DNA from: a bacterium
Lineage (GTDB): Bacteria > Patescibacteriota > Minisyncoccia > Sungbacterales > HO2-52-23
DNA: 64,000 nucleotides
Assembly: GCA_030697705.1 (NCBI GenBank)
Contig: JAUYPE010000006.1
Coordinates: forward strand, 4,686-68,685
Reading direction: 5' to 3'
Shown here: piece after piece, positions 2,587 to 57,292 of the stretch
How the letters are laid out: every line of letters starts with the position of its first letter
Position numbering within the stretch: the stretch's first letter is position 1
Notes under the pieces: generated by a model
Database searches by the model: none
What the model saw: only the letters and a program-made list of their open reading frames with translations
What the model was told of the DNA's origin: nothing
Position numbers and translations under genes: made by a program

Positions 2587-5500
2587 ATGACCGATAAGGA
2601 GAAAAAAGCGACGATTCCGGAGCGGGAGGAGGCCATTTTGAAGTTCTGGGAGGAGCGGGAGATCTTCCGGAAGTCGGTGGAAAAGAACAAGAAAGGAAAA
2701 GAATTTGTTTTTTACGAAGGGCCGCCAACGGCAAACGGTCTGCCCGGCATCCATCATGTGGAGGCGCGGGCGTTTAAGGATATTATTCCGCGTTATAAAA
2801 CGATGCGGGGATTTTTCGTCCCGCGCCGTGCCGGATGGGATACGCACGGCCTGCCGGTTGAGCTACAGGTGGAAAAAGAGCTTGGCTTAAAAAATAAGCA
2901 GGATATTGAAAAATACGGTATTGGTGCGTTTAACGCCAAGGCGAAAGAATCCGTCTGGCGCTATAAAGAGGAGTGGGAAAAACTGACGAAGCGGATGGGA
3001 TTCTGGATTGATATGGACAATCCCTACATCACGTACAGCGCTCCCTATATGGAGAGTTCGTGGTGGATTATCCAGCAATTCTGGAAAAAGGGTTTACTGG
3101 AGGAGGACTTTAAGGTCGTTCCATGGTGCACGCGATGCGCTACCGGCTTGTCATCTCATGAATTGGCGCAGGGGTATAAAAAAACGACTGACACGGCCGT
3201 GTATGTGAAGTTTAAACTGGAACCCAATCAAAAGATCGGTGATTTTATGACGGATGACAAGACCTATATTCTGGCGTGGACGACAACGCCATGGACATTG
3301 CCGGGGAATGTGGGGTTAGCGGTGAATCCGAAGCTTGAGTATGTAAAGATAAAATGGGCGAGATCCTTCTATAAGACCCAAGAAGGACAGGAATTGCCGA
3401 TGCATCTAGACGAATATTATGTCATCGCAAAAGATATCTTTCTAAAAGTTGCAGAAAAACATCCAGGCGAAACAAATCGCTATGGCTGGCGGGGTCAGAC
3501 ATATGATATTATTGAAACTTTTACTGGGGAAAAGATTGTAGGGCAAAGATACAAGTCACTCTTCCATGTTAGCGAACTCAAAACAGAAACGGCATACAGG
3601 ATATATTCAGCTGATTTTGTTTCAGCGAGTGAGGGTACCGGTGTGGTGCATACTGCGGTGATGTACGGAGAGGATGACTATGTGTTGGGAAAAAAAGTGG
3701 GATTGCCAACATTTCATACTGTTGACGAGGCGGGAAGATTTGTTGGTTCACTTACAGACGGACTTGCGGGATTGTATGTAAAAGATTCCAGAACGGAAGA
3801 AAAAATTCTTGAAATTTTAAAAAGTAAAAACCTTCTCTTTGCGCAGGAAAAGTACGAGCACGACTATCCGTTCTGCTGGAGGTGCGGGACGCCATTGCTC
3901 TACTACGCGCGGAAGGGATGGTGGGTGAAGACGACGAAGGTGAAGAAAGAACTTATCGCGAATAACGAAACAATCAACTGGGTGCCGGAGCATATTAAGC
4001 ACGGGCGGTTTGGCGAATTTTTGCGTGAGGTGAGGGATTGGGCATTTTCGCGCGAGCGGTATTGGGGAACACCCTTGCCTATTTGGAAGTGCCAAAGTGA
4101 AAAATGCGATCATGTTGAGGTTATAGGTTCGCGCACTGAAATGGCCGAACACGGGAAAAAACTTTATAACGAATATTTCGTCATGCGCCATGGCGAGGCG
4201 ATGACGAATAGCAGAGGGATTATCTCATCGGAGGAGAATAAATACCCGCTCACCGCGAAAGGTCGCGCGCAAGTACAACGCGCGGCGGCACGGCTGAAAA
4301 AACAAGGCATTGATATTGTTATCGCCTCGCCGATTTTGCGTACGCGCGAGAGTGCGAAGATAATCGCAAAGATATTGGCTCTACCCGATGAGAATGTGCA
4401 TTTTGATGCGCGATTAAAGGAGATTGCGCTAGGGTCGTATGAAGGCAAAAAGGAGGGAGAGTATCATCGCGCGTTTAAAAATATACGGGAAAAACTTACC
4501 ACCGCGCTCCCAGGCGGCGAATCGCTTGACGAGGTGCGCCGGAGAATGATGGCGGCGCTTATTGATGCGGAGAAAAAGCATGGGGGTAAAAAAATCCTTT
4601 TCGTGAGCCACGACTATCCGTTGTGGATGCTCATGCGCGGAGCGGAGGGGTACTCGGGCGAGGAGGCGATTGCTCTTCGCGAAAATAACGGAAAAGAAAT
4701 GATGCATTGCGGCTATGCCGAGGTCTACGGGCTCACGCATGCCGACCTGCCGCGTGACGAAAAAGGCGAGGTGAATCTTCACCGACCGTATGTTGATGAT
4801 TTTGTTTTTCCGTGCGTAACATGCGGTGGCATGATGCGGCGTACGCCCGAAGTTGCCGATGGGTGGTTTGACTCGGGTGTTATGCCGTTTGCGCAGAGCC
4901 ACTATCCGTTTAGCTCTGTCCGTCATCCTGAACCCTTCGGACACCCTCAGGATAAACTCCGTGAAGGATCCCGTAAGTTAACGGAATTCCTCGCCCCGAC
5001 GATCGGGACTCGGAATGACGAGGGTGGAGGTTTGGCTTTCCCCGCCGACTATATTTGTGAGGGAGTTGACCAGACGCGCGGATGGTTCTATACGCTTCTT
5101 GCTGTCGCAACACTCCTTGGAAAAAAAGCACCATACAAAAATGTCATTTCGCTCGGGCATGTGCTGGATAAAAACGGACAGAAGATGTCCAAGTCAAAAG
5201 GCAACACGGTAAACGCGTTGGAGATTATTGAGAAGTACGGCATTGATGCCCTGCGCTGGTATTTCTACACGATCAATCCGCCCGGCGAGCCCAAAAAGTT
5301 TGACGAACGGGATGTGGCGAATAGATATCGTGGATTCATTCAGACGCTCTGGAACAGTTTTGTTTTGTTTGACACCTATGTCACTTCGGTTCCCGCAAGA
5401 ATTCCATCAACCATAAAACTTTCTATGCTTGATCGCTGGATTCTGGCGCGGATGGATGAGGTGACAGCGGAGGTGACGCGTGCGCTGGATAGATACGATA

Positions 5501-6282
5501 TTATGGCTGCGGGGCGGGCGCTGGAGGAGTTTTGTATCAACGACTTCTCGCAGTGGTTCTTGCGCCGCTCGCGCCGTCGGTTCCAGCATCCGGCGAGTAA
5601 AAATGAGTATGCTGGCGTTACCGTGGTTACAGGCGCCGTGCTGATGCGCTTAGCTTTTTTAACAGCACCGTTCACGCCGTTTTTGAGCGAGATGATTTTT
5701 CAGGAGTTAAAGAAAAAAATGAAACTTAAAGAGGAAAGCGTGCATCTGGCGGCGTGGCCCGCAGCGCCGAAGAAAATAAGTGCGGCGGACAAAAAACTGA
5801 TATTAGATATGCAGGTAGTTCGTGCGATCTGCTCTGAGGCTCTAAAATTGCGTGCTGAGGTGGGGATGAAGGTGCGCCAACCGTTGAGCAAATTACAAAT
5901 TACGAATGCTGAATTACAAAAAAAGACGGAGCTTCTGGCATTAATTCAAGATGAGGTAAACATAAAAAATATTTCATTTGGGAAAGAAATGTTTCTTGAT
6001 ACGGTACTGACGGTAGAACTTCGTGAAGAGGGGATGGTGCGCGAAGTCATCCGCAATATCCAAGAGATGCGGCGCGATCTGGGACTCACGCCGAGCCACA
6101 AAATCCGCGCGCAATTTTCCGCTACATCAAATGCGCTGGATGAAGTGCTTGGCCGATGGCAAAAAACAATCATGCGCGATGCGGGCGTAAAGGCGTTTAT
6201 TATTGCAGGCAAACGGGTGTTTGCTGCCGAGCGGGAATTAAAATTTGACGATGCGATGCTGTGGTTAGGGATTAAGAAGTAA
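2587..6282 (+). CDS. ileS: isoleucyl-tRNA synthetase (type 2 / eukaryote-like) carrying an inserted histidine-phosphatase domain
   Basis: HIGH-type motif PPTANGLPGIHHV; GWDTHGLPVE; KMSKSKGN; WFDSGVMPF; 1231 aa, unusually long because of an insertion of about 190 aa with RHGE...SHD phosphoglycerate-mutase-family motifs between the ...VIGS and LHRPYVDD segments. Confidence 0.9.
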   Translation: MTDKEKKATIPEREEAILKFWEEREIFRKSVEKNKKGKEFVFYEGPPTANGLPGIHHVEARAFKDIIPRYKTMRGFFVPRRAGWDTHGLPVELQVEKELGLKNKQDIEKYGIGAFNAKAKESVWRYKEEWEKLTKRMGFWIDMDNPYITYSAPYMESSWWIIQQFWKKGLLEEDFKVVPWCTRCATGLSSHELAQGYKKTTDTAVYVKFKLEPNQKIGDFMTDDKTYILAWTTTPWTLPGNVGLAVNPKLEYVKIKWARSFYKTQEGQELPMHLDEYYVIAKDIFLKVAEKHPGETNRYGWRGQTYDIIETFTGEKIVGQRYKSLFHVSELKTETAYRIYSADFVSASEGTGVVHTAVMYGEDDYVLGKKVGLPTFHTVDEAGRFVGSLTDGLAGLYVKDSRTEEKILEILKSKNLLFAQEKYEHDYPFCWRCGTPLLYYARKGWWVKTTKVKKELIANNETINWVPEHIKHGRFGEFLREVRDWAFSRERYWGTPLPIWKCQSEKCDHVEVIGSRTEMAEHGKKLYNEYFVMRHGEAMTNSRGIISSEENKYPLTAKGRAQVQRAAARLKKQGIDIVIASPILRTRESAKIIAKILALPDENVHFDARLKEIALGSYEGKKEGEYHRAFKNIREKLTTALPGGESLDEVRRRMMAALIDAEKKHGGKKILFVSHDYPLWMLMRGAEGYSGEEAIALRENNGKEMMHCGYAEVYGLTHADLPRDEKGEVNLHRPYVDDFVFPCVTCGGMMRRTPEVADGWFDSGVMPFAQSHYPFSSVRHPEPFGHPQDKLREGSRKLTEFLAPTIGTRNDEGGGLAFPADYICEGVDQTRGWFYTLLAVATLLGKKAPYKNVISLGHVLDKNGQKMSKSKGNTVNALEIIEKYGIDALRWYFYTINPPGEPKKFDERDVANRYRGFIQTLWNSFVLFDTYVTSVPARIPSTIKLSMLDRWILARMDEVTAEVTRALDRYDIMAAGRALEEFCINDFSQWFLRRSRRRFQHPASKNEYAGVTVVTGAVLMRLAFLTAPFTPFLSEMIFQELKKKMKLKEESVHLAAWPAAPKKISAADKKLILDMQVVRAICSEALKLRAEVGMKVRQPLSKLQITNAELQKKTELLALIQDEVNIKNISFGKEMFLDTVLTVELREEGMVREVIRNIQEMRRDLGLTPSHKIRAQFSATSNALDEVLGRWQKTIMRDAGVKAFIIAGKRVFAAERELKFDDAMLWLGIKK
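4150..4770 (+). other. in-frame histidine phosphatase (PGAM/CobC-like) domain inserted in ileS
   Basis: YFVMRHGEAMTNSRG...PLTAKG...ASPILRTRESA...LPGGESLDEV...ILFVSHDYPL: RHG catalytic motif, second His in SHD, GGES region; matches the histidine phosphatase superfamily layout. Confidence 0.7.
4918..5022. repeat. palindromic MITE-like repeat, copy A (in-frame inside ileS)
   Basis: gtccgtcatcctgaac...gaaggatcccgtaagttaacggaattcctcg...ctcggaatgacg; shares termini and core with copies at 10559, 18995, 48428, 51198, 54079, 57143; 105 nt = 35 codons, translated as SVRHPEPFGHPQDKLREGSRKLTEFLAPTIGTRNDEG between the conserved HYPF and FPADYI segments. Confidence 0.7.
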
Positions 6283-10540: not shown

Positions 10541-10558
10541 ACAATACCCATGTATTCT

Positions 10559-10646
10559 GTCCGTCATCCAGAGCGTAGCGAAGGATCCCGTACGATCTCA
10601 GTATACTGAATACTAGCGGGATTCCTCGTTATACTCGGAATGACGG
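10559..10646. repeat. palindromic MITE-like repeat, copy D (intergenic, full length)
   Basis: gtccgtcatccagagcgtagcgaaggatcccgtacgatctcagtatactgaatactagcgggattcctcgttatactcggaatgacgg; terminal inverted repeats ccgtcatcc / ggaatgacgg; central palindrome tcagtatactga. Confidence 0.75.
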
Positions 10647-10713
10647 GCGGGGGGTCAAATGGGTGAGTCCTAGACGGATTGCGGAGTAACTGATTTTTTG
10701 CTATGATCATCCC

Positions 10714-16948: not shown

Positions 16949-19600
16949 ATGTCAATCATGCGCTACAATCCCAAAAAAATTGAAGCAAAGTGGCAGAAAA
17001 AATGGCTCGCGGAAAAAATCTACGAGCCGGATTTGACTTCTCAACGAAAAAATTCTCGACAAGATCAAACCGTAAAATTGCGCAAACCGTTTTATAATCT
17101 CATGATGTTTCCGTATCCGTCCGCGGAAGGACTCCACATCGGCGGGATGCGGACGTTTACTGGTGTGGATATATACGGGCGCATTAAACGGATGCAGGGA
17201 CATGACGTTTTTGAGCCCATCGGGCTTGATGCATTCGGTATTCACTCGGAAAACTATGCGCTCAAAACGGGGCGGCACCCGATGAAGCAAGCGGTTATTT
17301 TGAAAAAAAACTTCTACCGCCAGCTTGCCGCAATGGGCAACGGTTTTGCGTGGGATGAACGATTAGAAACGAACGATCCGGACTACTACCGCTGGACGCA
17401 GTGGATCTTTGTGCAGATGTTTCGGCACGGTCTTGCGTACCGCAAAAAACAGGCGGTGAACTGGTGTCCTTCGTGCAAAACGGTGCTTGCCGACGAGCAG
17501 GTCATCACGGGGCGGTGTGAACGGTGCGATAGTGAAGTAATGAAAAAAGAACTGGAACAGTGGTTTTTCCGCACGACAAAGTATGCCGAGCGCCTCCTCA
17601 ATAATCTTGAAAAAATTGACTGGTCGGAACGCGTGAAGATTGCGCAGAGGAATTGGATTGGGAAGTCGGATGGCGCAATAATTCGCTTTCCCCTTACCGA
17701 GATTCCCAGTCAGCCCGACGGTAAACATTTTGTTGATGTTTTTACCACGCGGCCCGATACGCTCTTCGGCGCGACCTTTCTTGTGATCTCTCCGGAGCTG
17801 GCGAAATTCTGGATGGATATCGGGTGGCGGGTGGGCGATGATGTGCGCGACTATGTAAAAACCACGCTTGCCGAGCGGGCGATACAAGCACGAGACGCAG
17901 AACCGAAAAAAACGGGCGTGTTCTCCGGCATCTATGGTATTAACCCCGCAAACCAAGAAAAAATTCCCGTCTGGATTGCGGACTATGTGCTCGCCGGATA
18001 CGGTACCGGTGCCATTATGGCGGTACCTGCACACGACGAACGCGATTTTGAGTTTGCAAAAAAGTATAATCTGCCGATAAAAATCGTTGTCTGTCCGCAC
18101 TATCCGGAGAAGACATGTCCGATTTTGGACGAGGCATACACAGGCGAGGGACACTTGGTTGGTTCAAGTGTATTTGATGGTATGACTTCAATTGCCGCGC
18201 GGGCGACTATTGTCAAACATGTCGGCGGGAAGATAACTATTCAATATCGGCTCCGCGATTGGCTGATCTCTCGTCAGCGCTATTGGGGACCGCCGATTCC
18301 GATGATCTATTGCGAGGCATGCGCACGCAATAAAAAAGGTGAGCGAAACGACACGCCCGGGTGGTATACGGTGCCGGAAAAAAATCTTCCGGTGAAACTG
18401 CCATTTATCAAAAACTTTAGACCTACTGGAACGGATCGGTCGCCACTCGCAAGCGTCGCTTCTTTTTATAAAGTTCGATGTCCGGGGTGTAAAAAAGAGG
18501 CGCGGCGCGAAACGGACGTCTCGGATACCTTTTTGGATTCCGCATGGTATTTTTTGCGCTATCCGAATGTAAAGAATAAAAAAGCCGCATGGGATGCGGC
18601 GATAACCAAAAAAATACTTCCCGTTGATTCATACATCGGCGGGGCGGAGCACTCGGTTTTACATCTCATGTACGCGCGCTTTTTGACGATGGCGTTACAT
18701 GATATTGGTGTTTTGAATTTTTCCGCCAAAGGCGGATCCGCCTCCGGCGGAGAAGAACCGTTTCCAAAATTTCGGGCGCACGGATTGATTACCAAAGACG
18801 GTGCGAAGATGTCCAAGTCAAAGGGCAATGTCGTGAGTCCCGACGAGTACATCAAAGCATACGGCGCCGATGCGGTGCGGATGTACTTGGCGTTTTTGGC
18901 TCCCTTTGAGCAGGACGGAGATTTCCGCGATACGGGCATCCGTGGTATGACGCGGTTTCTTGAGCGCGTTTGGCGGATGATGCAAAACTTCTCCAGCCGT
19001 CATCCTGAAGGAGCGAAGCGACTGAAGGATCCCGCAAAGTTACGGGATGCTTCGCCTACGGCTCAGCATGACATACAGCAGGTGCTCCATCGGACGATAA
19101 AGAAAGTTACGGAAGATATAGAGCACCTGCACTACAACACCGCCATTTCCGCGCTTATGGTTTTGCTCAATAGTTTTGAAAAACATCCGGAGGAGGTCGC
19201 GCAAGAATACGGAGGGGTATTTTTAAAGCTTCTGGCGCCATTTGCCCCGCATGTAGCGGAAGAGTTGTGGCAGCAGATGAATGCTCATACTAATGCTAAA
19301 TTAAAAATGCCAAATGATAAAAAAAAGCATTCAGCATTCAGCATTCAGTATTCAGCATTTCGTTCTGTTCATCGCGAGCCGTGGCCGAAATATAATCCAC
19401 GTTTGATCATGGAACAAACGTTTGAACTTGTCGTGCAGGTCAACGGCAAGGTCCGCGGCCGCGTATCTGTTTCTAGAGGAATAAGCGAGGCGGATGTGGT
19501 CGCCACAGCTCGCGCATTGGAGTCGGTAAAACCTTATTTAGCTGCACTGCCAAAAAAAACAATCTTTGTTCCCGATAAACTTGTAAACTTTGTCGTCTAG
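16949..19600 (+). CDS. leuS: leucyl-tRNA synthetase
   Basis: MMFPYPSAEGLHIGGMRTFTGVDIYGR...GLDAFGIHSE...KMSKSKGN; 883 aa; contains MITE copy B and a heptamer SSR in-frame. Confidence 0.92.
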   Translation: MSIMRYNPKKIEAKWQKKWLAEKIYEPDLTSQRKNSRQDQTVKLRKPFYNLMMFPYPSAEGLHIGGMRTFTGVDIYGRIKRMQGHDVFEPIGLDAFGIHSENYALKTGRHPMKQAVILKKNFYRQLAAMGNGFAWDERLETNDPDYYRWTQWIFVQMFRHGLAYRKKQAVNWCPSCKTVLADEQVITGRCERCDSEVMKKELEQWFFRTTKYAERLLNNLEKIDWSERVKIAQRNWIGKSDGAIIRFPLTEIPSQPDGKHFVDVFTTRPDTLFGATFLVISPELAKFWMDIGWRVGDDVRDYVKTTLAERAIQARDAEPKKTGVFSGIYGINPANQEKIPVWIADYVLAGYGTGAIMAVPAHDERDFEFAKKYNLPIKIVVCPHYPEKTCPILDEAYTGEGHLVGSSVFDGMTSIAARATIVKHVGGKITIQYRLRDWLISRQRYWGPPIPMIYCEACARNKKGERNDTPGWYTVPEKNLPVKLPFIKNFRPTGTDRSPLASVASFYKVRCPGCKKEARRETDVSDTFLDSAWYFLRYPNVKNKKAAWDAAITKKILPVDSYIGGAEHSVLHLMYARFLTMALHDIGVLNFSAKGGSASGGEEPFPKFRAHGLITKDGAKMSKSKGNVVSPDEYIKAYGADAVRMYLAFLAPFEQDGDFRDTGIRGMTRFLERVWRMMQNFSSRHPEGAKRLKDPAKLRDASPTAQHDIQQVLHRTIKKVTEDIEHLHYNTAISALMVLLNSFEKHPEEVAQEYGGVFLKLLAPFAPHVAEELWQQMNAHTNAKLKMPNDKKKHSAFSIQYSAFRSVHREPWPKYNPRLIMEQTFELVVQVNGKVRGRVSVSRGISEADVVATARALESVKPYLAALPKKTIFVPDKLVNFVV
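18995..19073. repeat. palindromic MITE-like repeat, copy B (in-frame inside leuS, short form)
   Basis: agccgtcatcctgaaggagcgaagcgactgaaggatcccgcaaagttacgggatgcttcgcctacggctcagcatgac; translated SSRHPEGAKRLKDPAKLRDASPTAQH in the variable linker before the conserved HRTIKKVTEDIE segment; boundaries approximate. Confidence 0.55.
19327..19360. repeat. tandem heptanucleotide repeat (gcattca x about 4.7) inside leuS
   Basis: gcattcagcattcagcattcagtattcagcattt preceded by an A8 run; encodes HSAFSIQYSAF within an expanded loop near the LeuRS C-terminus. Confidence 0.7.
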
Positions 19601-27975: not shown

Positions 27976-28653
27976 ATGCTTCTTTCCCGCAATGCGATTT
28001 TACGTCATTACCAACAAGGGAATATCGTCATTGATCCGTTTGACGAGCGGAAATTAAAAACAGTGAGTTATGATGTGTCGCTCGGCGATTGGTTTTGGCG
28101 CGAGGGGCATCCAGAGGGGCGTGCGACTGTGCACAATCTTTACGACGAAGAATCCACGAAGCGTGTGTGGCAAGGGCCGTTTCAGGCCGAGGCGCGGGAT
28201 GCGGTGTGCGAGCGGCTGGGAATGGATTTGAAAAATATTAAAACGGCGGACAAGATTATTCTCTTGCGTCCCGGCGAAACGGTGCTGGCGCATACAGAAG
28301 AATTTATCGGTGGTCGTGATCGTGCCGTCGCCAAAATGTACGCGCGCTCAAGCATGGGGCGCAATTTTATTGAGGTGTGCAAGGACGCCGGCTGGGGCGA
28401 TATCGGGTACTTCAACCGCTGGACGATGGAGGTGACGAACAATTCACAGTACTTTACTATTCCGTTGGTAGTGGGAAGGCGCGTCGGGCAGATGGTTTTT
28501 TATGAAGTAGAGCCGATCAGTGCCGTTCCCGATTATGTGAAAGAAGGCGGCAAATACCAGTACTCACAGGATATTGAAGAAGTTAAAAAATCATGGAATC
28601 CCCATATGATGATTCCGCAGATGCATAAGGATTGGGAAGTTGGCTCGGAATAG
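27976..28653 (+). CDS. dcd: dCTP deaminase / dUTPase-fold enzyme
   Basis: MLLSRNAILRHYQQGNIVIDPFDE...VSYDVSLGD...ILLRPGETVLAHTEEFIGG typical of dCTP deaminase; internal ATG chosen because the upstream part of the ORF overlaps tsaC in another frame. Confidence 0.7.
   Translation: MLLSRNAILRHYQQGNIVIDPFDERKLKTVSYDVSLGDWFWREGHPEGRATVHNLYDEESTKRVWQGPFQAEARDAVCERLGMDLKNIKTADKIILLRPGETVLAHTEEFIGGRDRAVAKMYARSSMGRNFIEVCKDAGWGDIGYFNRWTMEVTNNSQYFTIPLVVGRRVGQMVFYEVEPISAVPDYVKEGGKYQYSQDIEEVKKSWNPHMMIPQMHKDWEVGSE
28585..28642. repeat. direct repeat (copy 1 = native 3' end of dcd)
   Basis: aaaaaatcatggaatccccatatgatgattccgcagatgcataaggattgggaagtt; near-identical copy at 29396..29452. Confidence 0.75.
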
Positions 28654-28727
28654 CAATTATATCGTAATGGGCGCTCTGCTATGGAGGAAGATTGGAAATT
28701 TTTAGATAAATAGGTTATAATACACCC

Positions 28728-29395: not shown

Positions 29396-29452
29396 CAAAA
29401 ATCGTGGAATCCCCACATGATGATTCCGCAGATGCATAAGGATTGGGAGGTT
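29396..29452. repeat. direct repeat (copy 2, duplicate of dcd 3' end)
   Basis: cccaaaaatcgtggaatccccacatgatgattccgcagatgcataaggattgggaggtt, about 54/57 identical to 28585..28642. Confidence 0.75.
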
Positions 29453-29628
29453 AACTTGTCGTAGCGCTTTCGCTTTTTATTTTGCCCAGCGACAAAATAT
29501 GCTAAGCATCAACACGGTTTCTCTCGGCGACCATCGGGACCGTGCAAACTGTGTCTCAAATTGTCTCAAAATAAAAGCAAAAGCGCCTGCGAACTCGCAA
29601 GATAATGATCGGGGGGGGGATACATTTT

Positions 29629-47941: not shown

Positions 47942-50080
47942 TCACAAAAGTGCCGATTCGTTTCTCGCCTCCTCAACCGCCTCGCCGAGCATTTGGTAAT
48001 AAAGATTCAAGCCGATTTTATTGATGGCGCCCGATTGCTTGCGACCAAGAATATTGCCCGCGCCGCGGATTTCCAAATCGCGCAGGGCGAGCTGATATCC
48101 TGCGCCAAGTTCGGCGTATTCTTGCAGTGCCTCCAGCCGTTCTGTCGCTTTTTGGGTAAGATGTTTGGGACGATACAAAAAATACGCATACGCCTGATCC
48201 GTCCCACGGCCAATCCTACCGCGGAGCTGGTGCGCCTGCGCGAGTCCGAGCCGCGTCGCGTCGTCTACGATGAGCGTATTGGCAGATGAGATATCCAAAC
48301 CGTTTTCAATAATAGTGGTGGCAAGAAGAATATCTATTTTTCCCTCGCGAAACTCATTCATCGTGCGGATGATCGCGTCTTCCCCCATCCGGCCGTGCAT
48401 GATCGCGATGCGGGGTTTAACCCTTATTCCGTCATCCAGAGTCCCGACTCGTCGGGACGAAGGATCCCGTAAATTAACGGGATTCCTCTCCGCCCCAGGC
48501 GGCTCGGAATGACGGACAAAACGGGTAAATCCCAGCTTAGCTTTTTTTGCAAGCATGCGCTCAAGTTTCTGCTTCACCGCGCCGATCGTTTCTATCCTAT
48601 TATGGAGAAAATAAACCTGCCCGCCGCGTTCGCGTTCGCGAAGAATCGCCTCGGCAATGAGCTTGGCGGAATAAGGGAGGACGAGCGTCTGGATGGCGAG
48701 GCGGCCGGGCGGCGGGGTATCCAGTGTGGAAATGTCGCGAAGCCGCGCAAGGGTAAGTTGCATAGTGCGGGGGATGGGCGTTGCCGAGAGTGAGAGTATA
48801 TCAACATCGGCGCAAATTTCTTTTAAGCGTTCTTTTTGTTTAACACCGAAGCGCTGTTCTTCGTCCAGAATTACCATACCGAGATTCTTGAACGCCACAT
48901 CGCGTGAGAGGAGCCGGTGTGTGCCGATGATGCAATCAATTTTTCCATTCTGCACCTCGTCAAGCATGCGTGTTTGTTCTGCGGGAGAGGCGAGCCGGGA
49001 AATCATGCGGACGGAGACAGGGAGAGCGGCGAATCGCTCGCGGAACGTCCGTTCGTGCTGTGCGGCGAGGACGGTGGTGGGAGCCAAAACGGCGACCTGT
49101 GCGCCGGAGGCGATAATGCGCATCGCCGCGCGGATGGCAACCTCCGTTTTACCGAATCCCACATCGCCGCAGAGGACGCGATCCATGGGTGCATCACGTG
49201 CCATGTCGGCGAGGATTTCGTTTTCCGCTCGCGACTGGTCTTCTGTTTCTTGATAAGGGAAACTTTCGCGGAGTCGTGCTTCCATGTCGTTGTCCCCCGT
49301 GCGGGGAGGGCGCCGTGCGAGGGAACGCTTGGCATAGAGTGCAAGAAGTGCCCGCGCAAGTTTTTCTGTTTCTTCCTTTACTTTTCGTTTGGTATTCATC
49401 CACAGCGAACCGCCCAAACGATGTACGCGGGGTAACTCAAACCCCACATAGGGCGAGAGCCGCTCGTACTGCACGCGCGGTACAAATAGACGATCCGGCT
49501 CCGCTCCCTCGCGCGGCGGCGCGTATTCTATGATGAAAAAGTCATCCGTCGGTATGTCCGTTCCCAAAATGTTTTTTTGCCGCGCGTCTGTCCCCATGCC
49601 GTGAAAGATACCAATGCCGTGGTCAATATGGACGACGAAACTTCCCGGAGCGAGGTTCTCCATCGTTGTTTTTTGCGAGATGCGCGGTTTTGCGTGCGGC
49701 AGTTCTTCCGTCGGCGGGCGCTGGACAAGCGATGCGATCGTATTTCCCGAAAACTCAATCAAATAAGGTACAGCCGTATTAATCGGCCAGATCTCTATGA
49801 CCCCGCCGCGTACGGCGAAAAGCCCGCGACTCCGCACCGTTTGCACGCGCTCATAGCTAAAACCGGATAGCCGCCGTGCAAGTTCCGCCGGCTTCATGAC
49901 CAAGTCCTGCTCAACAAAAAATGCATGCTCCCGCCACCACGGATTCGCCATCCGCGCCTTCTTAATTGATTCCTGATTTTCCGCGTACCACAAAACATCC
50001 CTCTCCAAATTTTGGGGGGTTACCGAGACGATGAGGAGTTCTTGTGGTGGTGCCGCGCCCTGCGGCGCTTTGCCAGCCAT
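47942..50080 (-). CDS. mfd: transcription-repair coupling factor Mfd, short form lacking the UvrB-homology N-terminal domains
   Basis: Walker A CGDVGFGKTEVAIRAA, motif II DEEQRFGV, C-terminal TRCF domain; 712 aa versus about 1150 canonical; contains MITE copy C in-frame. Confidence 0.8.
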   Translation of the reverse strand: MAGKAPQGAAPPQELLIVSVTPQNLERDVLWYAENQESIKKARMANPWWREHAFFVEQDLVMKPAELARRLSGFSYERVQTVRSRGLFAVRGGVIEIWPINTAVPYLIEFSGNTIASLVQRPPTEELPHAKPRISQKTTMENLAPGSFVVHIDHGIGIFHGMGTDARQKNILGTDIPTDDFFIIEYAPPREGAEPDRLFVPRVQYERLSPYVGFELPRVHRLGGSLWMNTKRKVKEETEKLARALLALYAKRSLARRPPRTGDNDMEARLRESFPYQETEDQSRAENEILADMARDAPMDRVLCGDVGFGKTEVAIRAAMRIIASGAQVAVLAPTTVLAAQHERTFRERFAALPVSVRMISRLASPAEQTRMLDEVQNGKIDCIIGTHRLLSRDVAFKNLGMVILDEEQRFGVKQKERLKEICADVDILSLSATPIPRTMQLTLARLRDISTLDTPPPGRLAIQTLVLPYSAKLIAEAILRERERGGQVYFLHNRIETIGAVKQKLERMLAKKAKLGFTRFVRHSEPPGAERNPVNLRDPSSRRVGTLDDGIRVKPRIAIMHGRMGEDAIIRTMNEFREGKIDILLATTIIENGLDISSANTLIVDDATRLGLAQAHQLRGRIGRGTDQAYAYFLYRPKHLTQKATERLEALQEYAELGAGYQLALRDLEIRGAGNILGRKQSGAINKIGLNLYYQMLGEAVEEARNESALL
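48428..48517. repeat. palindromic MITE-like repeat, copy C (in-frame inside mfd, read on minus strand)
   Basis: ttccgtcatccagagtcccgactcgtcgggacgaaggatcccgtaaattaacgggattcctctccgccccaggcggctcggaatgacgga; 90 nt = 30 codons; encodes VRHSEPPGAERNPVNLRDPSSRRVGTLDDG immediately before the conserved RIAIMHGRM segment. Confidence 0.65.
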
Positions 50081-51176: not shown

Positions 51177-51197
51177 AGTTAAAGCTTATGGTTTTTG

Positions 51198-51282
51198 TCC
51201 GTCATTCTGAACGCAGTGAAGAATCCCGTATGATTTCAGTATGTTGAACATTAACGGGATTCCTCGCTTCGCTCGGAATGAC
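51198..51282. repeat. palindromic MITE-like repeat, copy E (intergenic pth/lepB)
   Basis: tccgtcattctgaacgcagtgaagaatcccgtatgatttcagtatgttgaacattaacgggattcctcgcttcgctcggaatga. Confidence 0.75.
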
Positions 51283-51363
51283 AAGAGGGCGAAAAATATA
51301 GTATTTGTAGGATTTTGAGGGTTATTATTTGCCAATAGAGCTTAGGTCAACTATACTCTACGC

Positions 51364-54078: not shown

Positions 54079-54188
54079 GTCATTCCGAGCGTGAGCGACT
54101 GCCAGGAGGCGTCCCGTGAGGGGGGAATTCCGTTAATATTCAGCATACTGAAATTGTACGGGATCCTTCGCTACGCTCTGGATGACGG
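54079..54188. repeat. palindromic MITE-like repeat, copy F (intergenic, opposite orientation)
   Basis: gtcattccgagcgtgagcgactgccaggaggcgtcccgtgaggggggaattccgttaatattcagcatactgaaattgtacgggatccttcgctacgctctggatgacgg. Confidence 0.75.
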
Positions 54189-54201
54189 AGTTGTTTTTGC
54201 T

Positions 54202-57120: not shown

Positions 57121-57142
57121 TTTTAGGACTTACGCATTTTAT

Positions 57143-57233
57143 CCGTCATTCAAGGTGTAGCGAAGGATTTTTCGTACGATTTCAGTATACTGAAAATAGT
57201 AACGGGATTCCTCGCGGGTGCTCGGAATGACGG
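57143..57233. repeat. palindromic MITE-like repeat, copy G (intergenic upstream of ftsA)
   Basis: ccgtcattcaaggtgtagcgaaggatttttcgtacgatttcagtatactgaaaatagtaacgggattcctcgcgggtgctcggaatgacgg. Confidence 0.75.
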
Positions 57234-57292
57234 ATAGGGGAGAGAGAAGGTCTCCTTTTGTTATCATTCTTTATTCTTACTTCTTCATTTCT

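What the first reader, a model, noticed from the sequence alone, without database searches (positions are those of the whole stretch)
4918..5022. MITE copy inserted in-frame in the isoleucyl-tRNA synthetase catalytic core
The 105-nt element (exactly 35 codons) is translated as SVRHPEPFGHPQDKLREGSRKLTEFLAPTIGTRNDEG. It sits between the universally conserved HYPF and FPADYI(C/A)EG(V/L)DQTRGWFYTL segments, where other IleRS have only about 8-10 residues. The flanking IleRS motifs are intact, so the enzyme is presumably functional with an extra surface loop. Only one of the three frames of the element is stop-free, and that is the frame used. This resembles the in-frame Rickettsia palindromic elements inside protein-coding genes.
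Basis: partly seen in the sequence, partly recalled or inferred. Interest (0 to 1): 0.75.

Follow-up and report, generated by a model that had tools for sequence, protein, structure and literature searches.

The report
Palindromic repeat translated inside IleRS
A copy of a short palindromic repeat has landed in frame inside the essential isoleucyl-tRNA synthetase gene of a Sungbacteria (CPR) bacterium and is read as a floppy extra loop, much like the Rickettsia palindromic elements, and close relatives of the same repeat occur in unrelated phyla.

Summary
Window 4915-5031 (core 4918-5022) is one of seven copies in the window of a ~90-115 nt palindromic repeat. It lies in frame in a 1231-aa type-2 IleRS.

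The closest homologue (81% identical over aligned codons) has an empty site, a net difference of exactly 35 codons. Only the frame in use is open. HIGH and KMSKS are intact, and dN/dS against that homologue is 0.13. AlphaFold2 predicts residues 776-814 as unstructured within an otherwise confident model.

Two more copies are translated in frame in the window, in LeuRS and in Mfd. The same IleRS loop carries related elements at the same codon offset in at least two other Parcubacteria lineages whose nearest relatives have empty sites.

The family is not lineage-specific. A profile built from the window copies alone finds about 150 places in 0.83 Mb of mainly Verrucomicrobia loci, with arms about 84% identical. 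Some of those copies are also in frame in real genes (Mfd, IspG-like and others).

No target-site duplication is detectable, and each arm is itself an imperfect palindrome. It therefore behaves like an RPE, but it is not shown to be a classical MITE. How it moves is unknown.

The parts
4915..5031 (+). Palindromic repeat copy translated inside ileS (residues 777-815, SVRHPEPFGHPQDKLREGSRKLTEFLAPTIGTRNDEGGG). Terminal inverted repeats are CCGTCATCCTGA at 4920-4931 and TCGGAATGACG at 5010-5020.
   Evidence: (E=7e-20). Empty site in L001/P0002. pLDDT below 50 for residues 776-814.
2587..6282 (+). ileS, a type-2 isoleucyl-tRNA synthetase of 1231 aa and the host gene. HIGH-type motif at residues 53-57, KMSKS at 866-870.
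   Evidence: (H57 and K866-S870 invariant). dN/dS 0.13 against P0002.
10553..10657 (+). Intergenic copy, a near-perfect long hairpin, between a MazG-like gene and a YafQ/YoeB-like toxin gene.
   Evidence: -46.5 kcal/mol, z -6.2; E=4e-27.
18990..19085 (+). Copy translated in frame inside leuS (ORF 16949..19600), peptide SSRHPEGAKRLKDPAKLRDASPTAQHDI.
   Evidence: E=1e-15. The linker is 42 aa here, 27 aa in the closest homologue P0121 and most often 24 aa.
48420..48525 (+). Copy translated in frame, on the opposite strand, inside mfd (ORF 47942..50080, minus strand), peptide FVRHSEPPGAERNPVNLRDPSSRRVGTLDDGI.
   Evidence: E=3e-20. E. coli Mfd has 2 residues (833-834) where this protein has 45.
51191..51295 (+). 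Intergenic copy between the divergent genes pth (minus strand) and lepB (plus strand).
   Evidence: z -7.8; E=3e-26.
54102..54195 (-). Intergenic copy with a degraded 3' end, just upstream of the likely yqeY start.
   Evidence: (E=6e-22).
57137..57244 (+). Intergenic copy between a HEPN-domain gene and ftsA.
   Evidence: z -5.6; E=2e-24.

Best explanation
A copy of a non-coding, multi-copy palindromic DNA repeat was inserted into ileS, in the short loop between the HYPF segment and the FPADYI strand of the Rossmann fold. The repeat has outer inverted termini (C)CGTCATCC.GA ... TCGGAATGAC(G) and arms that are themselves small imperfect palindromes.

This subtype of the element has one stop-free frame (RH[P/S]E ... 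[N/H/D]D), and the net length change is a multiple of three. The mRNA is therefore translated straight through, giving 39 element-encoded residues in place of 4. These form a disordered loop on the N-terminal side of the strand whose C-terminal end carries the conserved DQTRGW motif.

The enzyme stays functional. The insertion is tolerated selfish DNA, not a designed domain. This is the same process described for Rickettsia palindromic elements.

Shown here: repeat membership, the empty site in the nearest relative, frame use, intact motifs, purifying selection, and the predicted disorder.

Inferred: that the loop faces away from the active site, that the insert is neutral or slightly deleterious, and how it moves. 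The most likely route is a hairpin or single-strand-dependent mechanism that leaves no target-site duplication, of the REPIN/RAYT or IS200/IS605 kind, rather than cut-and-paste by a DDE transposase. No mobilising enzyme was identified.
For: Repeat family:
- Seven copies in the window; the pattern matches 5 times against 0 in shuffles; intergenic copies fold with z -5.6 to -7.8.

Empty versus filled site:
- P0002, the sister in a neighbour-joining tree (81% identical over aligned codons, 83.5% with the loop masked), reads HHPFSKKEKLAFPADY. There is one clean 35-codon gap.
- Solved IleRS2 (8c8u) has 6 residues at the site.

Frame and function:
- Only the used frame is open on the + strand. All three genic copies use the same RH(P/S)E...D frame.
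- HIGH and KMSKS columns are invariant. dN/dS is 0.13.
- AF2 gives mean pLDDT 86.3 and pTM 0.79. Residues 776-814 are below 50 with no secondary structure, and the flanks are confident.

Generality:
- In-frame copies in LeuRS (+15 aa against the closest homologue) and Mfd (45 aa where E. coli Mfd has 2).
- A second element in the editing domain of P0044 shares CTCAGGATAAACTCCGTGAAGGATC with the ileS copy.
- Related elements sit at the same codon offset in P0004/P0016 and P0044, whose nearest relatives have empty sites.
- In-frame copies in a Verrucomicrobia Mfd and in proteins whose sequences look like IspG, a cysteine desulfurase and RNase D.

Against a classical MITE:
- No TSD in 111 copies.
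- Arm-internal complementarity in 285 of 358 cases against 139 expected, with 5 compensatory types.
Against: - There is no direct evidence of translation: no proteomics and no RNA data.
- Whether a second ileS exists elsewhere in the genome cannot be checked from one window.
- The filled site is not a simple insertion. 117 nt replace 12 nt, so either a deletion accompanied the insertion or the flanks have diverged since.
- Surface exposure is inferred from low pLDDT and Rossmann-fold topology, not measured on coordinates.
- The ileS copy folds weakly (z -1.9) and belongs to a branched subtype, so its age and source copy are unclear.
- Three lineages have the element starting exactly 3 codons after HxPF. 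This could mean site preference, or selection for something, rather than pure tolerance.
- No transposase or RAYT was found, so mobility is inferred from the distribution alone.
Confidence: 0.85

Rival explanations
1. The element is a classical MITE: a deletion derivative of an insertion sequence, moved in trans by a DDE transposase that recognises the terminal inverted repeats.
For: It is small and multi-copy, has imperfect terminal inverted repeats of 12 nt or more, and encodes no protein.
Against: There is no target-site duplication of 2-6 bp at offsets 0-2 and no flank consensus in 111 copies. No longer element or transposase with the same ends was seen in the window or in 0.83 Mb of related loci. 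The arms are themselves hairpins with compensatory variants, which a transposase that reads terminal repeats does not require.
Confidence: 0.15
2. The insert has been co-opted. The extra loop gives IleRS a selected function, for example a partner-binding or regulatory surface, which would explain why the same loop carries element-derived segments in several lineages.
For: Related elements occupy the same codon offset in at least three lineages. P0004 and P0016, which are 74% identical, keep nearly the same insert including its loop sequence.
Against: The inserts differ in subtype, length (24, 26 and 35 extra residues) and peptide sequence. The nearest relatives lack them. AF2 predicts no structure. 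The same element is read through unrelated loops of LeuRS, Mfd and other proteins. The loop also carries unrelated low-complexity inserts in other Parcubacteria, which fits a permissive site better than a selected one.
Confidence: 0.08
3. It is an ordinary lineage-specific protein loop that only resembles a repeat by chance.
For: The loop length at this site varies widely among Parcubacteria IleRS, giving a WFDSG-to-RGWF stretch of 34 to 75 aa.
Against: Nucleotide-level membership in a 7-copy family (E=7e-20). The inverted termini are retained. A 25-nt sub-module is shared with an element at a different site in another genome, and 21 nt of it occur in at least 120 metagenome contigs. The sister sequence has an empty site.
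Confidence: 0.01
4. The insert is not translated. It is removed or bypassed at the RNA level, or the gene is a pseudogene, or the insert is an assembly artefact.
For: The element can form RNA structure, and such hairpins are potential RNase III substrates. No expression data are available.
Against: All three genic copies are stop-free in the host frame and keep that frame open. This would not be required if they were excised or bypassed. The identical protein occurs in an independent NCBI MAG (P0001). The gene has no frameshifts and dN/dS is 0.13.
Confidence: 0.03

Closest known systems
Rickettsia palindromic elements (RPE; Ogata et al. 2000 Science 290:347; Ogata et al. 2002 Genome Res 12:808; summarised in PMC2229807 and PMC10969869)
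   Same: Palindromic repeats of about 100-150 nt with inverted termini, found in intergenic regions and fused in frame within conserved housekeeping genes of a small, reduced genome. They are translated in a conserved frame and are thought to be tolerated at surface positions. TSD status is listed as unknown ('?') for RPE in PMC2229807, and none is detectable here.
   Different: A different phylum (Patescibacteria/Sungbacteria). Sequence similarity to RPEs was not tested. RPEs are Rickettsia-specific, whereas this family recurs with about 84% arm identity in Verrucomicrobia and in related form in Bacteroidota. Here the arms are themselves small palindromes, and the same enzyme loop was hit repeatedly in different lineages.
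Bacterial MITEs found in frame inside genes (ERIC/IRU, the 107-bp Correia/NEMIS element, YPAL; Delihas 2007, PMC2229807)
   Same: Small hairpin-forming repeats with inverted termini. Variants with an open frame are found inside genes and variants with stops are intergenic. This matches the window, where the branched, stop-free subtype is genic and the long-hairpin subtype with stops is intergenic.
   Different: Those MITEs are mostly A+T-rich, often have TA termini, and make target-site duplications. This family shows no TSD and has termini of the form (C/T)GTCAT...ATGAC(G/A).
REP/REPIN elements mobilised by RAYT (IS200/IS605-like Y1 transposases)
   Same: Each arm is a 20-30 nt imperfect palindrome, and two inverted arms make a hairpin doublet of about 90 nt. 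There is no TSD. Copy density is very high in some genomes, with several copies per 8 kb in Udaeobacter-like contigs.
   Different: No RAYT gene was identified. Copies are not confined to extragenic positions. REP families are normally species- or genus-specific, not shared across phyla.

Membership tests
MITE (classical, DDE-transposase mobilised) | Small (under about 300 bp), non-coding, multi-copy | tested here: met
   Length 90-117 nt; 7 copies in 64 kb; about 150 places in 0.83 Mb of other loci.
MITE (classical, DDE-transposase mobilised) | Terminal inverted repeats | tested here: met
   (C)CGTCATCC.GAGCG / CGCTCGGAATGACG(G), paired with single-nucleotide bulges.
MITE (classical, DDE-transposase mobilised) | Target-site duplication flanking each copy | tested here: not met
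   In 111 copies, direct repeats of 2-6 bp at offsets 0-2 occur at about chance frequency. The flanks show no consensus.
MITE (classical, DDE-transposase mobilised) | A parent insertion sequence or transposase with the same termini | not tested
   None was seen near the copies in the window or as L...R end pairs 0.5-4 kb apart in related loci. No whole genome was available.
Rickettsia palindromic elements (RPE-1 to RPE-10) | Sequence membership in an RPE family in a Rickettsia genome | not tested
   The host is a Sungbacteria (Patescibacteria) MAG. No RPE sequences were compared.
Rickettsia palindromic elements (RPE-1 to RPE-10) | Palindromic repeat translated in frame within conserved genes, compatible with the protein fold | tested here: met
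   Found in ileS, leuS and mfd in the window. The insert is predicted disordered, the flanks are confident, and the motifs are intact.
REP/REPIN-RAYT | The unit is a short imperfect palindrome; REPIN = two inverted units forming a hairpin | tested here: met
   Within an arm, A-N-N-N-T ... A-N'-N'-N'-T are complementary in 285 of 358 cases against 139 expected, with five compensatory types. Fisher p=9e-11 within one set. Shared ancestry of copies could inflate these figures.
REP/REPIN-RAYT | An associated RAYT (Y1 transposase) gene flanked by REPs | not testable with these tools
   This needs the complete genome. None lies beside the four intergenic window copies.
IS200/IS605-derived PATE | Insertion 3' of a conserved 4-5 nt target, without TSD | tested here: not met
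   There is no TSD, but also no conserved 5' flank at positions -15 to -1. The strongest bias is C at -1 in 45 of 111 copies.
Rfam structured RNA families | A match to a curated covariance model | tested here: not met
   Only a tRNA in the window reaches a gathering score. Only sub-threshold miRNA-like hairpin noise falls on the element.

The most novel reading that the evidence does not exclude
The ileS insert may be one visible case of an undescribed, modular superfamily of nested-hairpin repeats. Its signature is GTCA-NNN-TGA...GAAG-N'N'N'-TC arms. Closely similar copies occur in Patescibacteria and Verrucomicrobiota, pattern matches occur in MAGs labelled Nitrospirota and Binataceae, and a related form occurs in Bacteroidota.

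On this reading the superfamily spreads without target-site duplication, probably through a single-strand or hairpin-dependent enzyme, and moves between phyla. In compact CPR genomes it would be a recurrent source of new loops in essential enzymes. Certain loops, such as IleRS HYPF|FPADY and the LeuRS linker, would act as repeated landing or survival sites.
Probability: 0.4. Interest if true: 0.8.

Novelty: new member of a known kind. Interest (0 to 1): 0.62.

Why it matters
In-frame 'selfish DNA' inside essential genes has been regarded as mainly a Rickettsia peculiarity, with scattered cases involving enterobacterial and Neisseria repeats.

In this window 3 of the 7 copies are translated, inside IleRS, LeuRS and Mfd. 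Both copies on another Sungbacteria contig lie in ileS. By comparison, about 4-5% of copies in the larger Verrucomicrobia genomes are in frame. This suggests repeat insertion is a regular source of the extra loops seen in CPR housekeeping proteins.

Repeated, apparently independent hits in one IleRS loop offer a natural experiment on where an aminoacyl-tRNA synthetase tolerates insertions.

Arm identity of about 84% between phyla raises a testable question: what enzyme or vector moves this element, and does it cross phylum boundaries?

Tried and rejected
- Searching the protein database with the 40-aa insert peptide returned nothing, because no candidate shared three 5-residue words with it. 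A first attempt failed on the E-value limit. A census of proteins carrying the peptide could therefore not be made that way.
- The scan of viral contigs and of phage genomes found no copy, so there is no evidence for a phage vector.
- Rfam found no family, at gathering or at permissive thresholds.
- Literature searches found no description of such an element. Terms tried: RPE with CPR; palindromic with in-frame and Patescibacteria; Udaeobacter with repeat and palindromic; MITE with CPR or Verrucomicrobia; and the terminal sequences themselves.
- Extra window matches to the 11-nt terminus (34480, 36434, 41712, 44286 and others) were inspected and rejected as chance, because they lack the rest of the element.
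- RNAalifold on 36 copies showed strongly conserved stems but almost no covariation in the long hairpin. That fold is not independently supported; the arm-internal pairing is.
- A search for left and right end pairs 0.5-4 kb apart, which would mark an autonomous parent element, gave nothing obvious.
- Brevundimonas and Bordetella pattern hits (L043, L069) lack the 3' terminus and are chance matches inside coding sequence.
- For LeuRS, comparison with solved structures alone did not show a net insertion. Close homologues were needed.
- One Mfd query was in the wrong frame and was repeated.
Full report
**1. What is at the coordinates**

Window 4918-5022 reads GTCCGTCATCCTGAACCC...CTCGGAATGACGAG. 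It lies inside ORF 2587..6282(+), which encodes 1231 aa. Pfam identifies this protein as a class-I IleRS: tRNA-synt_1, Anticodon_1 and DUF5915, plus an inserted His_Phos_1 domain. The best solved relatives are type-2 IleRS structures, 8c8u and 1ile.

Position 4918 is in codon phase 0. On the + strand only that frame is stop-free; frame +1 has one stop and frame +2 has several. This is a small inconsistency with 'exactly 35 codons' and does not matter.

**2. It is a repeat, not a chance resemblance**

The repeat finder, a hand alignment and an nhmmer profile agree on exactly seven copies in the window:

| Copy | Location | nhmmer E-value |
|---|---|---|
| 4915-5031 | ileS | 7e-20 |
| 10553-10657 | intergenic | 4e-27 |
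| 18990-19085 | leuS | 1e-15 |
| 48420-48525 | mfd | 3e-20 |
| 51191-51295 | intergenic | 3e-26 |
| 54102-54195 (minus strand) | intergenic | 6e-22 |
| 57137-57244 | intergenic | 2e-24 |

A degenerate family pattern hits 5 times, against 0 in 100 shuffles. Other matches to the 11-nt terminus alone were inspected and dismissed.

The consensus is (C)CGTCATCC.GAGCG.AGCGAAGGATCCCGT - loop - ACGGGATTCCTCG....GCTCGGAATGACG(G). Intergenic copies fold into near-perfect long hairpins (z -5.6 to -7.8). The three genic copies are a branched subtype with side hairpins. The ileS copy is the most eroded (z -1.9).

The long-hairpin subtype has stops in most frames, while the branched subtype has an open RH(P/S)E...(N/H/D)D frame. 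All three genic copies are read in that frame. Mfd reads it from the opposite strand.

**3. It is an insertion**

Among 120 IleRS homologues, all Parcubacteria and many labelled Sungbacteria, the WFDSG-to-RGWF stretch is usually 38-41 aa. Here it is 75 aa.

The closest full-length relative is P0002. It is 81% identical over aligned codons and 83.5% with the loop masked, and it is the sister in a neighbour-joining tree. It reads HHPF-SKKEKLA-FPADY.

The DNA compares as follows:
- P0002 contig: CCG TTC AGT | AAA AAA GAA AAA | CTC GCC TTT
- Window: CCG TTT AGC | TCT GTC CGT CAT ... AAT GAC GAG GGT GGA GGT | TTG GCT TTC

So 39 codons replace 4, a net gain of 35. This is the only large gap in the C-terminal two-thirds of the pairwise alignment.

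The 5' TCTGTC and the purine-rich 3' tail also flank the intergenic copies. The element proper is therefore about 4915-5031. Either 12 nt were lost when it inserted, or the old KKEK codons have diverged.

Against the solved IleRS2 structure 8c8u, the alignment breaks at residues 534/541. Six residues there correspond to 39 here.

**4. The gene looks functional and the insert looks like a loop**

- HIGH-type residues (…PGIHH, H57) and KMSKS (866-870) fall in invariant alignment columns.
- dN/dS against P0002 is 0.13, with dS 0.92.
- An identical partial protein exists in an independent NCBI MAG (P0001). This argues against an assembly artefact.
- AlphaFold2 with a 60-sequence alignment gives mean pLDDT 86.3 and pTM 0.79.
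- The only long low-confidence stretch is 776-814, with pLDDT about 28-45 and no secondary structure. It coincides with the insert (residues 777-815).
- The following strand (820-824, FPADYI) and helix (833-843, DQTRGWF...) are confident.

The insert precedes the N-terminal end of a Rossmann strand whose C-terminal end carries the conserved DQTRGW motif. From general Rossmann topology I infer that it projects from the face opposite the catalytic pocket. This was not measured on coordinates.

**5. The phenomenon is general**

*Other genes in the window.* In Mfd, 45 residues sit where E. coli Mfd has two, at 832/835 in RecA-like domain 2. In LeuRS the linker after RFLERVW is 42 aa, against 27 in the closest homologue (P0121, 76% identity) and a most common length of 24. 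Solved LeuRS structures have a variable linker of similar length there, so they were uninformative on their own.

*Other IleRS.* P0004 and P0016 (...RHPERSEG.FMQKKRDSSP.AQND...) and P0044 (...RHPERAKRTKDLEILLRQLSDQND...) carry related elements. In each, RHPE begins exactly three codons after HxPF, as in the window.
- These elements differ in subtype and add 26 or 24 residues rather than 35.
- The nearest relatives of each bearer have empty sites.
- The tree implies at least three gains: the window lineage, the P0004/P0016 clade and P0044.
- The P0004/P0016 clade also includes the empty P0008.

Whether the shared offset reflects target preference, or survival within a 6-7 codon loop, is open.

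P0044 also has a second element in its editing domain. It shares CTCAGGATAAACTCCGTGAAGGATC with the window's ileS copy. It appears there as part of varied, mosaic palindromic elements.

**6. The family crosses phyla**

Most are Verrucomicrobia (Candidatus Udaeobacter and Chthoniobacterales), some on contigs up to 4 Mb long. A few are in MAGs labelled Nitrospirota, Binataceae, Acidobacteria and Saccharibacteria. Two hits, in Brevundimonas and Bordetella, are chance matches.

A profile built from the seven window copies alone finds about 150 places in 0.83 Mb of those loci, with best E 6e-12. The arms of copy 10553-10657 are on average 83.5% identical to them. Several copies per 8 kb are common there.

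A related, perfectly palindromic 113-nt form (GTCATGCTGAGCG...) lies between atpC and atpD on a Hymenobacter plasmid.

Mis-binning could explain some of the minor phyla. It cannot explain the Patescibacteria and Verrucomicrobiota cases.

In Verrucomicrobia too, a few copies are read in frame inside real genes. One is an Mfd. Three others I recognise by sequence as an IspG-like protein, a cysteine desulfurase and an RNase D-like protein; I did not run these through Pfam. That is about 4-5 of 109.

By contrast, 3 of the 7 window copies are genic, as are both copies found on the second Sungbacteria contig (L002). This is a small sample, but it fits a compact genome that leaves little intergenic room.

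**7. What kind of element it is**

Small size, multiple copies and inverted termini fit a MITE. However, 111 copies show no target-site duplication (2-6 bp at offsets 0-2, at chance level) and no conserved flank. No transposase lies next to the four intergenic window copies. Their neighbours are MazG-like and YafQ-like genes, pth and lepB, a HIT gene and yqeY, and a HEPN gene and ftsA.

The conserved 'asymmetry' between the two ends has an explanation. Each arm is internally complementary: ATCCT...AGGAT in the 5' arm and ATTCC...GGAAT in the 3' arm. Across subfamilies the pentamers co-vary:

| Pentamer pair | Count |
|---|---|
| ATCCT/AGGAT | 171 |
| ATTCT/AGAAT | 93 |
| ATGCT/AGCAT | 8 |
| ATGTT/AACAT | 7 |
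| ACCCT/AGGGT | 4 |

In total 285 of 358 cases are complementary, against 139 expected. Within the Verrucomicrobia set, Fisher p=9e-11. Shared ancestry of copies inflates such figures, so this is supportive rather than proof.

The long hairpin itself shows almost no covariation, because its stems are nearly invariant.

Two inverted REP-like units with no TSD resemble REPINs or IS200/IS605 derivatives. But no RAYT was found and there is no conserved target tetranucleotide. The mechanism of movement is therefore inferred and remains unresolved.

Rfam has no matching family. Five literature searches found no description.

**8. Comparison with what is known**

The closest analogue is the Rickettsia palindromic element. 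RPEs are 105-146 bp palindromes with 12-bp inverted termini and uncertain TSDs. They are fused in frame into 19 or more conserved genes, and RPE-containing guanylate kinase was shown to be active (PMC2229807, PMC10969869, citing Ogata 2000 and 2002 and Abergel 2006). ERIC and the 107-bp Correia element show the same split between in-frame and intergenic variants (PMC2229807).

The present case works like an RPE. It is a new family in a new phylum, with three differences: cross-phylum distribution, nested-hairpin arms, and recurrent hits in the same loop.

**9. Verdict**

The strict MITE label fails the TSD test. This is a new member of a known kind, and its family context is more interesting than the single insert.

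Noticed in passing
window 4177-4677 (IleRS residues 531-697): A complete histidine-phosphatase (His_Phos_1, PGAM-like) domain is inserted inside IleRS (Pfam E=5e-35). Most of the 120 closest Parcubacteria IleRS carry it. R534, H535, E645 and H675 are invariant in 60 sequences, and AF2 folds the domain with confidence, so it is probably an active enzyme domain. One literature search found no description.
   Followed up: partly
window 18990-19085 (leuS) and 48420-48525 (mfd): Two more copies of the same palindromic repeat are translated in frame, in LeuRS (+15 aa against the closest homologue) and in Mfd (45 aa where E. coli Mfd has 2). Mfd reads the element from the opposite strand.
   Followed up: yes
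window 19315-19373 (leuS, near the C-terminal domain): A tandem 7-nt repeat (ATTCAGC, about 4 units) lies in frame in LeuRS (…KKKHSAFSIQYSAFRS…). This segment is 35 aa here, 17 aa in the closest homologue and most often 11 aa, so it is a second, unrelated insertion in the same gene.
   Followed up: partly
P0121-P0240 (LeuRS homologues): Many Parcubacteria/Sungbacteria LeuRS are 950-1170 aa long and carry NUDIX (PF00293) and/or alpha/beta-hydrolase (PF06821, PF00561) domains. Together with the His_Phos domain in IleRS, this suggests that extra enzyme domains in aminoacyl-tRNA synthetases are a trait of this clade. Whether the extra LeuRS domains are internal or terminal was not checked.
   Followed up: no
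P0017-P0113 (IleRS loop between HYPF and FPADY): The same IleRS loop in other Parcubacteria holds other insert types with patchy distribution. These include low-complexity AQSQKSKIKNQNFG-like segments and SYETRSHR...-type segments (P0026, P0049, P0096). They may derive from other repeat families, which would make the loop a general insertion hotspot.
   Followed up: partly
L002:11031-11143 (ileS of P0044, GCA_964501445.1): A second element copy is translated in the editing domain of another Sungbacteria IleRS (ARHPERNGHPESFDGHSDPPAGGEESQDKLREGSRDPSASPQDDDMPRDDG). It shares a 25-nt module with the window's ileS copy.
   Followed up: partly
L002:6702-8083: A bAvd gene and a reverse transcriptase (RVT_1) gene, which look like a diversity-generating retroelement, lie just upstream of argS-ileS on that Sungbacteria contig.
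   Followed up: no
L004-L114 (Verrucomicrobia loci), e.g. L051, L059, L087: The element is very dense in Udaeobacter/Chthoniobacterales contigs, with several copies per 8 kb. A few copies are in frame in genes: L017 Mfd, L020 IspG-like, L021 cysteine desulfurase-like, L074 RNase D-like.
   Followed up: partly
L238:399-515 (Hymenobacter psoromatis plasmid CP014769.1, about 195716-195832): A perfect 113-nt palindrome of a related subfamily (CCGTCATGCTGAGCGCAGCGGAGCGGAGTCGAAGCATCTC...) lies between atpC and atpD of a cultured Bacteroidota species.
   Followed up: partly
window 28586-28654 and 29397-29465: A 69-nt direct repeat, 87% identical, with copies 811 nt apart, lies at or near the 3' ends of neighbouring ORFs. 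It is unrelated to the palindromic family. Its cause was not examined.
   Followed up: no
window 47942-50080 (minus strand): The Mfd homologue is only 712 aa, against about 1150 aa in E. coli. It therefore lacks part of the canonical architecture.
   Followed up: no
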